A stretch of 6,577 nucleotides of DNA from a virus, in the UHGV virus genome UHGV-1437364; one strand, 5' to 3'. Positions within the stretch are counted from its first letter, which is position 1. Every line of letters begins with the position of its first letter. A program made the position numbers and the translations under genes. The notes under the pieces were generated by a model, which was not told the origin of the DNA, searched no databases, and was given only the letters and a program-made list of their open reading frames with translations. Below are positions 363 through 540 of this stretch, in pieces.

Positions 363-540
363 CCGAAAGAATCAACGGGTTAGGCCTTAATGGGCTGCGT
401 GGTAATTATCAGCATCCAGAATATGACGGGTTATGTTTCCGACCTCCTCAATTTGAGGTTCCCGAAAATATCAACGGGTTAGGCTGGTTTCCCCGATGTT
501 CGCCGCTGGCGAATTTCGAAAATATCAACCAGTTACCGCC
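363..540. repeat. Three direct copies of a ~22-bp motif in a non-coding region
   Basis: Copies at 363-386 (CCGAAAGAATCAACGGGTTAGGCC), 462-485 (CCCGAAAATATCAACGGGTTAGGC) and 515-540 (TCGAAAATATCAACCAGTTACCGCC). The first two are exactly 100 bp apart. A 13-bp palindrome CCTCAATTTGAGG lies at 446-458. No convincing ORF covers the region. Confidence 0.6.

What the first reader, a model, noticed from the sequence alone, without database searches (positions are those of the whole stretch)
363..540. Direct 22-bp repeats and a palindrome in the non-coding region beyond the inverted cos
Three copies of CGAAAATATCAACGGGTTAGGC-like sequence (two exactly 100 bp apart) plus a 13-bp palindrome, with no credible ORF. 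They could be binding sites for a regulator or recombinase, part of an attachment site, or a second iteron set. The function cannot be read from the sequence.
Basis: seen in the sequence. Interest (0 to 1): 0.4.

Follow-up and report, generated by a model that had tools for sequence, protein, structure and literature searches.

The report
Palindrome plus IHF-site repeat array
The three repeats are real: they are the conserved cores of a short array of "small palindrome + IHF-binding-site" units lying just after the last gene of an E. coli phage satellite (PICI), and this non-coding end module, apparently undescribed and shared by many such satellites, most likely lets the host DNA-bending protein IHF fold the end of the element.

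Summary
The copies lie at 364-385, 463-484 and 517-538. Spacings are 99 and 54 bp, not 100. The 13-bp palindrome is at 446-458.

The window is a Nextera-adapter-flanked piece of a PICI-type satellite, 98% identical to the Nissle 1917 island between tRNA-Pro and yejO. The repeats are part of four tandem units (298-538). Each unit is a perfect but variable palindrome, then TTYCGRAAR, then WATCA(A/G)NNNGTTA.

That 13-mer is the IHF consensus. Across 19 distinct units, the invariant positions are exactly the positions the consensus specifies. The last unit overlaps the stop codon of the island's last gene (93 aa, phrog_1561).

The same gene plus array ends different satellite types (lambda-like, cf-PICI such as EcCIEDL933, ClpP-capsid) at at least six integration sites. 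Array-like DNA is found in 980 of 5426 complete E. coli genomes and in no phage record.

The array is not coding, not the att site (core 330-570 bp away, with its own arm repeats), and not a second iteron set.

Best reading: an IHF-bound architectural array at the 3' end of the late operon, functionally resembling RIB/RIP (BIME-1) elements. IHF binding and function are untested.

The parts
298..334 (+). Unit 0 (degenerate): palindrome GCGCAATTTTGCGC (298-311) + TTTGCTTTAA + degenerate core GTTCAGCAAGTTA (322-334)
   Evidence: sequence. Repeat family D6 324-338/525-539. Terminator-like hairpin 297-312. The orthologous unit in EDL933 is cgcaattttgcgc...TCTCAGTAAGTTA.
349..385 (+). Unit 1: palindrome GCCAATGGC (349-357) + TGTTTCCGAAAG + IHF-consensus core AATCAACGGGTTA (370-382) + GGC
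421..433 (+). Relic of a core (ATATGACGGGTTA; a one-base deletion plus a substitution relative to TATCAACGGGTTA)
   Evidence: Read directly.
446..484 (+). Unit 2: 13-bp palindrome CCTCAATTTGAGG (446-458) + TTCCCGAAAA + core TATCAACGGGTTA (469-481) + GGC
   Evidence: The same unit occurs in EDL933, HM670 and others.
499..538 (+). Unit 3: palindrome TTCGCCGCTGGCGAA (499-513) + TTTCGAAAA + core TATCAACCAGTTA (523-535) + CCG. The TTA at 533-535 is the complement of the stop codon of the 93-aa gene.
533..797 (-). Last gene of the island (93 aa in relatives, phrog_1561, function unknown). In this window it is frameshifted by a 17-nt deletion between 633 and 634.
   Evidence: It is always the last gene before the host flank.
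127..157 (+). Second repeat family (CTGCGTGGTGATTTCCACCATTCAGA; perfect palindrome GGTSATTATSACC in relatives). A degenerate second copy lies at 390-420.
   Evidence: family D2.
119..126 (+). Chi octamer GCTGGTGG. A second one lies at 242-249. Both are part of the conserved terminal non-coding arm.
190..213 (.). A-run / stem / T-run hairpin (AAAAACCCCATATTCGTGGTTTTT), imperfect here and perfect in EDL933 (AAAAACAACATATTCGTTGTTTTT). Looks like a bidirectional terminator.
   Evidence: Read. Not called by the scan.
863..874 (+). cosN (GGGCGGCGACCT) of the + oriented cos. The inverted second cosN is at 1730-1741. These landmarks place the array 325-565 bp on the cosQ side of the first cos.
   Evidence: EcCICFT073 is reported to have two functional cos sites (PMC6092414).

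Best explanation
The three repeats are the conserved cores of four tandem 'palindrome + IHF box' units at 298-538. These units fill the first ~240 bp after the last gene (93 aa) of a PICI-type phage satellite. They lie inside a 0.5-0.9 kb non-coding arm that runs from that gene to the island's att junction.

Shown: the unit anatomy is a perfect palindrome of variable sequence that ends 5-12 nt (mostly 9-11) before the core, then TTYCGRAAR, then WATCA(A/G)NNNGTTA. The core coincides with the IHF consensus. The array is tied to the stop codon of the last gene. It is conserved across satellite types and integration sites. It is not coding, not the att site and not iterons.

Inferred: host IHF binds each core and bends the DNA sharply. 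This would turn the 3' end of the late operon into a compact nucleoprotein array. By analogy with chromosomal RIB/RIP (BIME-1) elements, the array would act architecturally, as a transcriptional or topological insulator. In the excised circle or concatemer it would sit between the late/packaging operon and attP plus the int gene that follows in the same direction. The palindromes would add hairpin or cruciform-prone DNA, or a second binding surface.
For: 1. The only three exact matches to WATCAANNNNTTR in the 6.6-kb window are the three repeats, against 0.29 expected. The same enrichment is seen in EDL933 and Nissle.
2. In 19 distinct units from 12 loci, the invariant columns are T2 C3 A4 and T10 T11 A12, with A1 near-invariant and position 0 almost always A or T. 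These are exactly the specified consensus positions. The N positions vary.
3. Of 14 distinct units, 10 have perfect palindrome arms of at least 6 bp at a nearly fixed offset, against 3% of random 27-mers. The palindrome sequences differ between units.
4. The array always starts at the stop codon of the island's last gene.
5. The gene plus array is shared by lambda-type (MCP/D/Nu1-like), cf-PICI (HNH/TerS/TerL, including EcCIEDL933), DUF1441 and ClpP-MCP satellites. Integration sites include proL/yejO, phoQ, clpS, thiM, ydgV and allC.
6. Array-like DNA is present in 980 of 5426 complete E. coli genomes and absent from 50,697 phage records.
7. In tandem islands the arm is followed directly by int on the same strand (L025).
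8. RIB/BIME-1 elements combine palindromes with an IHF site at the 3' ends of transcription units, and BIME/REP elements can act as terminators, mRNA stabilisers and topological insulators (PMC3333891).
Against: IHF binding was not tested, and a consensus match is not occupancy.

The A/T tract seen 9-14 bp upstream of the core in strong sites such as lambda H' (recalled from memory, not tested) is replaced here by G+C-rich palindrome arms.

Some sister satellites with the same last gene lack the units. They carry five helically phased TGTCAC repeats instead, or a long hairpin cluster. So the units are not indispensable.

Copy number varies from 1 to 7.

IHF needs no palindrome, so part of the anatomy is unexplained.

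The insulator role rests on analogy only. No promoter-like site, and only weak terminator-like hairpins, were found.
Confidence: 0.5

Rival explanations
1. Extended accessory arm of attP. The IHF sites would bend the far arm so that the integrase/RDF complex can assemble for excision or integration.
For: The array lies in the non-coding arm next to the att junction. IHF is the classical cofactor of tyrosine-integrase intasomes. A canonical IHF site sits next to the core in these islands.
Against: The array starts about 330 bp from the junction in this island and about 420 bp in EDL933. The arm-type repeats (CGTATAAC here, ACTACACC in phoQ-type islands) and a separate IHF site lie within about 100 bp of the core. 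The same array goes with different arm repeats and different integration sites. Copy number varies from 0 to 7.
Confidence: 0.13
2. RNA-level element. The units would be hairpins in the 3' UTR of the late operon (mRNA stabilisers or terminators) or part of a non-coding RNA.
For: The array begins at the stop codon of the last gene. In related satellites the same slot holds a hairpin cluster with fold z-scores of -7 to -8 and C-G/U-A/U-G covariation on the gene's strand. Weak terminator-like hairpins occur at 547-530 (-) and 297-312 (+).
Against: Folding 290-560 gives z of only -1.5 (-) and -2.1 (+). Several palindromes have one-base centres, so RNA stems would be only 3-5 bp. The stems are pure Watson-Crick with no consistent wobble bias on either strand. 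The strongest conservation is in the unpaired 13-mer and follows a DNA-binding consensus. There is no Rfam match.
Confidence: 0.15
3. Binding sites for a satellite- or helper-encoded dimeric protein, possibly decoys. One example would be mimics of lambdoid replication-origin iterons, with the IHF box assisting.
For: Perfect palindromes at a fixed offset suggest dimer binding. Two palindromes (TCCTCAAATTGAGGA, TCCCCCAATGGGGGATTG) each share a 10-mer with lambda ori iteron 3.
Against: At least nine different palindrome sequences cannot all fit one protein. About 40-60 shared 10-mers with lambda arise by chance per array, so two landing in one iteron is only suggestive (roughly 0.4 expected by my own estimate). 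The extended motif occurs nowhere else in the island, for example near promoters.
Confidence: 0.07
4. Functionless debris. The units would be tandem duplications or recombination scars left by module exchange between satellites at the conserved 3' end of the last gene.
For: Copy number and unit order vary. Degenerate units and relics exist (322-334, 421-433). Some satellites do without the units. Chi sites nearby could favour recombination.
Against: Position-specific conservation follows a protein-binding consensus, not uniform decay. Palindromes are kept perfect although their sequences differ. Some 0.5-0.9 kb of non-coding DNA is retained in 8-12 kb elements across 980 genomes.
Confidence: 0.1
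5. Second iteron set for the satellite's replication protein (like P4 crr), or a protein-coding region (ORF 215-649).
For: The repeats are direct, as iterons are. The three spacings (99, 54, 201) are multiples of 3, and one ORF spans all copies.
Against: The origin iterons are GGTAGA/TCTACC-type and unrelated. L026 has identical origin iterons but no units. The ORF is not conserved, and spacings of 85 and 68 bp occur elsewhere. There is no Pfam, PHROG or NCBIfam hit.
Confidence: 0.03

Closest known systems
RIB/RIP elements (BIME-1) of the E. coli chromosome
   Same: Mosaic of short palindromes plus a conserved linker carrying an IHF consensus site. [quoted passage not shown] Variable copy number between loci. 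Proposed architectural, insulator, terminator or mRNA-stabilising roles (PMC3333891).
   Different: The palindromes here are not REP sequences: shorter, A/T-centred, different in every unit, and with GTAG only next to some long units. Each unit has one palindrome in direct orientation, not two inverted REPs flanking the IHF site. The family is confined to satellite ends and is not dispersed over the chromosome.
IHF sites of lambda attP (H1, H2, H') and cosB (I1)
   Same: Same 13-bp consensus. Found on a mobile element that has a lambda-like cos and a tyrosine integrase.
   Different: Those sites are single sites interleaved with Int, Xis or terminase sites within about 150 bp of the core or cosN. 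Here 3-7 same-orientation sites sit 330-860 bp from the att core. They are about 330-570 bp (this window) to about 2.3 kb (cf-PICI) from cos, and no arm or R sites lie between them.
IS10/Tn10 outside end (from memory, not tested here)
   Same: A short inverted repeat immediately next to an A-rich ATCA-N5-GTTA IHF site that folds the DNA.
   Different: That is a single transposon end bound by transposase. Here there is no transposase, the units form a tandem direct array, and the palindromes are variable.
P4 crr / plasmid iteron sets
   Same: Direct repeats far from the origin in a satellite that encodes its own primase.
   Different: crr repeats have the same sequence as the ori iterons. Here they do not, and presence of the array is uncoupled from origin type.

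Membership tests
IHF binding site | Match to the core consensus WATCAANNNNTTR | tested here: met
   Three of three repeats match exactly, and they are the only matches in the window. Invariant columns in 19 units coincide with the specified positions.
IHF binding site | A/T-rich tract about one helical turn 5' of the core (a feature of strong sites such as H'; position recalled from memory) | tested here: not met
   Positions -14 to -9 are the G+C-rich right arm of the palindrome. A/T-rich stretches lie at -19 to -14 and -4 to -1 instead.
IHF binding site | Actual binding and bending by IHF | not testable with these tools
   Needs EMSA, footprinting or ChIP.
RIB/RIP (BIME-1) | REP palindromes (20-40 nt, GTAG-tagged, y/z1 consensus) in inverted pairs flanking the L linker | tested here: not met
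   Palindromes are 9-25 bp, differ between units, and occur once per unit in direct orientation. Definition taken from PMC3333891.
RIB/RIP (BIME-1) | IHF site in a conserved linker; location at the 3' end of a transcription unit | tested here: met
   Core conserved. The array starts at the stop codon of the last gene of the island.
RIB/RIP (BIME-1) | Dispersed in many copies over the chromosome | tested here: not met
   There are 1-4 places per genome. Every place examined in annotated or called-gene context (about 45 loci, many of them near-identical islands) is a satellite end.
Replication iterons (second set, P4 crr-like) | Same repeat sequence as the origin iterons next to the rep/primase gene | tested here: not met
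   The origin repeats are GGTAGA/TCTACC (window about 4990-5230; L026 2500-2730). The units share no motif with them, and L026 lacks the units.
Attachment site (attP core or arm) | Identity segment with the tRNA 3' end, or integrase arm-type repeats present at both island ends | tested here: not met
   The core (CACGAGAG) is at L001 11913-11920, about 80 bp left of window base 47. The arm repeats CGTATAAC are at L001 11982-12001 and 23210-23265. Neither motif occurs in the array.
CRISPR array | Constant repeat separated by variable spacers of constant length; cas genes or a leader | tested here: not met
   Spacings are 48-135 bp, the variable part is itself palindromic, and there are no cas genes.
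Intrinsic terminators | G+C-rich stem directly followed by a U run | tested here: inconclusive
   Only 297-312 (+) and 547-530 (-) pass a loose scan, no more than expected from shuffles. The other palindromes lack a T run.

The most novel reading that the evidence does not exclude
The 'palindrome + IHF box' array would be a dedicated cis-acting organiser that PICI and cf-PICI satellites need for their life cycle. One possibility is an IHF-assembled barrier or switch that controls read-through from the late/packaging operon across attP into int once the element is circular or concatemeric. Another is a set of decoy sites that capture helper-phage DNA-binding proteins, since two palindromes resemble lambda O-protein iterons. 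The TGTCAC repeats and the structured RNA of sister satellites would then be alternative solutions occupying the same slot.
Probability: 0.12. Interest if true: 0.75.

Novelty: new variant of a known kind. Interest (0 to 1): 0.42.

Why it matters
PICIs and cf-PICIs are major vehicles of gene transfer in E. coli, and their coding modules have been dissected in detail. In the four PICI/cf-PICI papers I checked for these terms, nothing describes the 0.5-0.9 kb non-coding arm that ends these 8-12 kb elements.

This work shows that the arm carries a conserved, satellite-specific array of host-factor (IHF) sites paired with palindromes. That gives a concrete cis element to delete or mutate, and a host dependency (ihfA/ihfB) to test for satellite excision, expression and transfer.

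It also bears on engineered PICI-based delivery particles, where such 'empty' DNA is often trimmed. If the array proves dispensable, it is simply a BIME-like repeat family private to satellites.

Tried and rejected
- Rfam scans of the window and of six related loci: nothing relevant.
- Promoter scan of 1-1100: no sigma-70-like site.
- RNA folding of 290-560 on both strands: z only -1.5 and -2.1.
- Coding hypothesis: the ORF is not conserved and has no family hits.
- The 93-aa neighbour as a clue: no Pfam, NCBIfam or PDB sequence match. The AF2 model is three helices at pLDDT 66, and Foldseek against PDB gave nothing with E below 0.9. tblastn found it in no deposited phage.
The top 120 homologues are all E. 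coli at 86% identity or more, so I could not test genera beyond Escherichia/Shigella.
- IMG/VR scan for the degenerate 20-mer gave only single matches, none clustered, which look like chance but were not inspected.
- Lambda ori-iteron mimicry: two shared 10-mers in iteron 3, not significant against the chance background.
- Wobble-pair test for the transcribed strand: no bias.
- Search for copies of the extended motif elsewhere in the island, for example at promoters: none.
- Sigma-54 promoter, DnaA box, integron attC (GTTRRRY fits only some units), Tus/Ter and hix/gix resemblances were considered by eye and dropped for wrong spacing or too few matches.

Full report
**What the window is.** Bases 1-46 and 6532-6577 are Nextera/Tn5 mosaic-end adapter sequence (recognised by eye), so the contig ends are library artefacts. 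The rest is 98.4% identical to an island of E. coli Nissle 1917, ATCC 25922 and relatives. In Nissle the island lies between tRNA-Pro (next to yejM) and the yejO pseudogene.

On the - strand the island encodes, in order: integrase, small regulators, a D5_N-type primase followed by origin iterons, SSB, a lambda E-like major capsid protein, a D-like decoration protein, a Nu3-like protein, a cos site, and a Nu1-like small terminase. A second, inverted cos follows, and then a 93-aa gene of unknown function. The prototype PICI EcCICFT073 is reported to have two functional cos sites (PMC6092414). The finding lies just beyond the 93-aa gene.

**The observation.** The 22-mer is exact at 463-484 and has two mismatches at 364-385, with none expected by chance. 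The copy at 517-538 keeps the first 13 bases exactly and 17 of 22 overall. Spacings are 99 and 54 bp, not 100. The 13-bp palindrome is CCTCAATTTGAGG at 446-458.

**Anatomy.** Each copy is preceded at a nearly fixed distance by its own perfect palindrome: GCCAATGGC, CCTCAATTTGAGG and TTCGCCGCTGGCGAA. A fourth, degenerate unit lies at 298-334 (GCGCAATTTTGCGC plus GTTCAGCAAGTTA), and a relic core at 421-433.

I collected the homologous regions of 12 related loci. The unit is: a palindrome of 9-25 bp ending 5-12 nt (mostly 9-11) before the core, then TTYCGRAAR, then WATCA(A/G)NNNGTTA, then SSGC.
- Ten of 14 distinct units have perfect arms of at least 6 bp, against 3% of random 27-mers from the same loci.
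- At least nine different palindrome sequences occur.
- The stems are pure Watson-Crick, with no consistent G-T bias on either strand.

**The core is the IHF consensus.** WATCAANNNNTTR matches the window exactly three times, and those matches are the three repeats (0.29 expected). EDL933 and Nissle show the same concentration.

In the information profile of 19 distinct units, the fully invariant columns are T2, C3, A4 and T10, T11, A12. A1 is near-invariant and position 0 is almost always A or T. The four N positions vary. Conservation therefore follows a known protein-DNA recognition pattern, not uniform decay. This is the strongest single argument for what the repeats are.

Two caveats apply. 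The A/T tract found 9-14 bp upstream of strong sites such as lambda H' (my recollection) is not in that position here. And binding itself is untested.

**Where the array sits.** The TTA of the last core (533-535) is the complement of the stop codon of the 93-aa gene. In every island that has the array, it starts at that stop codon.

The 93-aa gene (phrog_1561) is always the last gene before the host flank. After it come 0.5-0.9 kb with no conserved ORF. The 144-codon + ORF at 215-649 is not kept open in relatives, although some gene callers report it.

The host/island junction in Nissle is at L001 11913-11921 (CACGAGAG, shared with the tRNA-Pro 3' end), about 80 bp left of window base 47. Integrase arm-type repeats (CGTATAAC) lie within about 85 bp of it and again on the int side. 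The array therefore lies 330-570 bp from the core, outside the recognisable attP arms.

**Distribution.** The same last gene plus array closes several satellite types: lambda-type satellites, capsid-forming PICIs with HNH/TerS/TerL (including the island next to phoQ in EDL933, which has seven units), a DUF1441-type island and a ClpP-capsid-fusion island. Integration sites include proL/yejO, phoQ, clpS, thiM, ydgV/tqsA and allC.

Array-like DNA occurs in 980 of 5426 complete E. coli genomes. There is none in 50,697 phage records, and in plasmid records only in five entries whose context I did not examine.

The array goes with different integrases, arm repeats and packaging systems. It is therefore unlikely to be a site for any of those proteins. 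A host factor fits better.

**Not iterons.** The origin iterons beside the primase gene are GGTAGA/TCTACC-type (window about 4990-5230). L026 has the same origin repeats but no units at all. In their place it has five helically phased TGTCAC repeats. L012 has both the TGTCAC repeats and one unit.

**RNA or DNA?** Folding 290-560 gives weak z-scores of -1.5 and -2.1. Many palindromes have one-base centres. There is no Rfam hit. These points favour a DNA-level element.

However, in L004, L008, L009, L010 and L013 the same slot holds a 120-270-nt cluster of hairpins with z of -7.2 and -8.1. One stem shows C-G, U-A and U-G variants on the gene's strand. That cluster has no Rfam match. So the slot can host a structured RNA, and an RNA role for the units cannot be excluded.

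**Mechanism.** Shown: the anatomy, the consensus match, the position and the distribution. Inferred: IHF binds each core and bends the DNA, building a compact array at the 3' end of the late operon. In tandem or circular copies, int follows the arm on the same strand (L025). A barrier or insulator between late transcription and attP/int is therefore a plausible role.

The closest known analogue is the chromosomal RIB/RIP (BIME-1) element. It combines palindromes with an IHF-binding linker at the 3' ends of transcription units, and has proposed terminator, mRNA-stabilising and topological-insulator functions (PMC3333891). The array fails the membership test for that family: the palindromes are not REP sequences, they are not in inverted pairs, and the family is not dispersed. 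It works like a BIME-1 element without being one.

**Dead ends.** The neighbour protein gave no functional clue. Resemblance of two palindromes to lambda ori iteron 3 is within chance. I could not sample genera beyond Escherichia/Shigella.

**Verdict.** This is a real, non-random and conserved cis element, best described as a satellite-specific array of IHF boxes paired with variable palindromes. The PICI papers I checked do not mention it. Its role is unproven. Interest is moderate: a specialist would not be astonished by IHF sites on an integrative element. But a conserved, repeated host-factor array at the end of PICIs and cf-PICIs is new, easy to test, and relevant to how these elements are engineered.

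Noticed in passing
window 1-46 and 6532-6577: Both ends are Nextera/Tn5 mosaic-end adapter sequence (…AGATGTGTATAAGAGACAG / CTGTCTCTTATACACATCT…), so the contig boundaries are library artefacts and not biological ends.
   Followed up: partly
window 119, 242, 3758, 6197 (+) and 288, 754, 2751, 4637, 5936 (-): There are nine Chi octamers (GCTGGTGG) in 6.5 kb, far denser than chance. Every related satellite end examined has at least one + strand Chi between the att junction and the array. This may protect linear or concatemeric satellite DNA from RecBCD.
   Followed up: partly
window 633/634 (vs L001 12586-12602): A 17-nt deletion (ggatccgtatgttgcgc) relative to Nissle frameshifts the conserved 93-aa last gene in this window. 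It is either a pseudogene or an assembly error.
   Followed up: partly
window 820-1050 (+) and 1600-1790 (-): Two cos sites in inverted orientation flank the Nu1-like terS gene. The + one has lambda-like R-type repeats (aaagaaacgacac / gtcgtttctcag). This matches the published two-cos arrangement of EcCICFT073.
   Followed up: partly
L026 4290-4345; L012 2455-2497; L015 2868-2925: Sister satellites carry five TGTCAC repeats at about 10-bp phasing directly after the same last gene. They either replace the IHF units (L026-L033, L035) or sit beside one (L012). This looks like a filament-type protein-binding site of unknown partner.
   Followed up: partly
L004 3225-3500 (also L008, L009, L013 about 2190-2445; L010 2681-2936): A cluster of roughly 8-9 consecutive hairpins (RNA fold z -7.2 / -8.1) has a conserved core of about 120 nt and C-G/U-A/U-G covariation on the late-operon strand. 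There is no Rfam family. It is a candidate satellite non-coding RNA occupying the same slot as the array.
   Followed up: partly
window 127-157 and 390-420; L012 2337-2353, 2505-2521; L002 2903-2919: A second conserved motif, CTGCGTGGTSATTATSACCATTCAGA, contains a 13-bp perfect palindrome. Its two S positions change together (GGTGATTATCACC vs GGTCATTATGACC). It is present even in satellites that lack the IHF units.
   Followed up: partly
L001 11982-12001 and 23210-23265: CGTATAAC repeats occur twice at the far end of the island and four times (two of them inverted) next to int. These are probably the integrase arm-type sites. The window starts inside the last one.
   Followed up: partly
L024/L025 (GCA_900618165.1 contig UYIS01000011.1): Two copies of the island appear to lie in tandem. 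The second locus starts 3 kb beyond the first, and in one the non-coding arm is followed directly by an integrase gene on the same strand, an attP-like junction in the chromosome.
   Followed up: no
window 1802-3836 (-): The satellite encodes its own lambda-type major capsid protein (Phage_cap_E), decoration protein (HDPD) and a protein resembling the C-terminal (Nu3-like) part of the head protease. It has no portal, large terminase or tail genes. This is a gene set intermediate between classical PICIs and cf-PICIs.
   Followed up: partly
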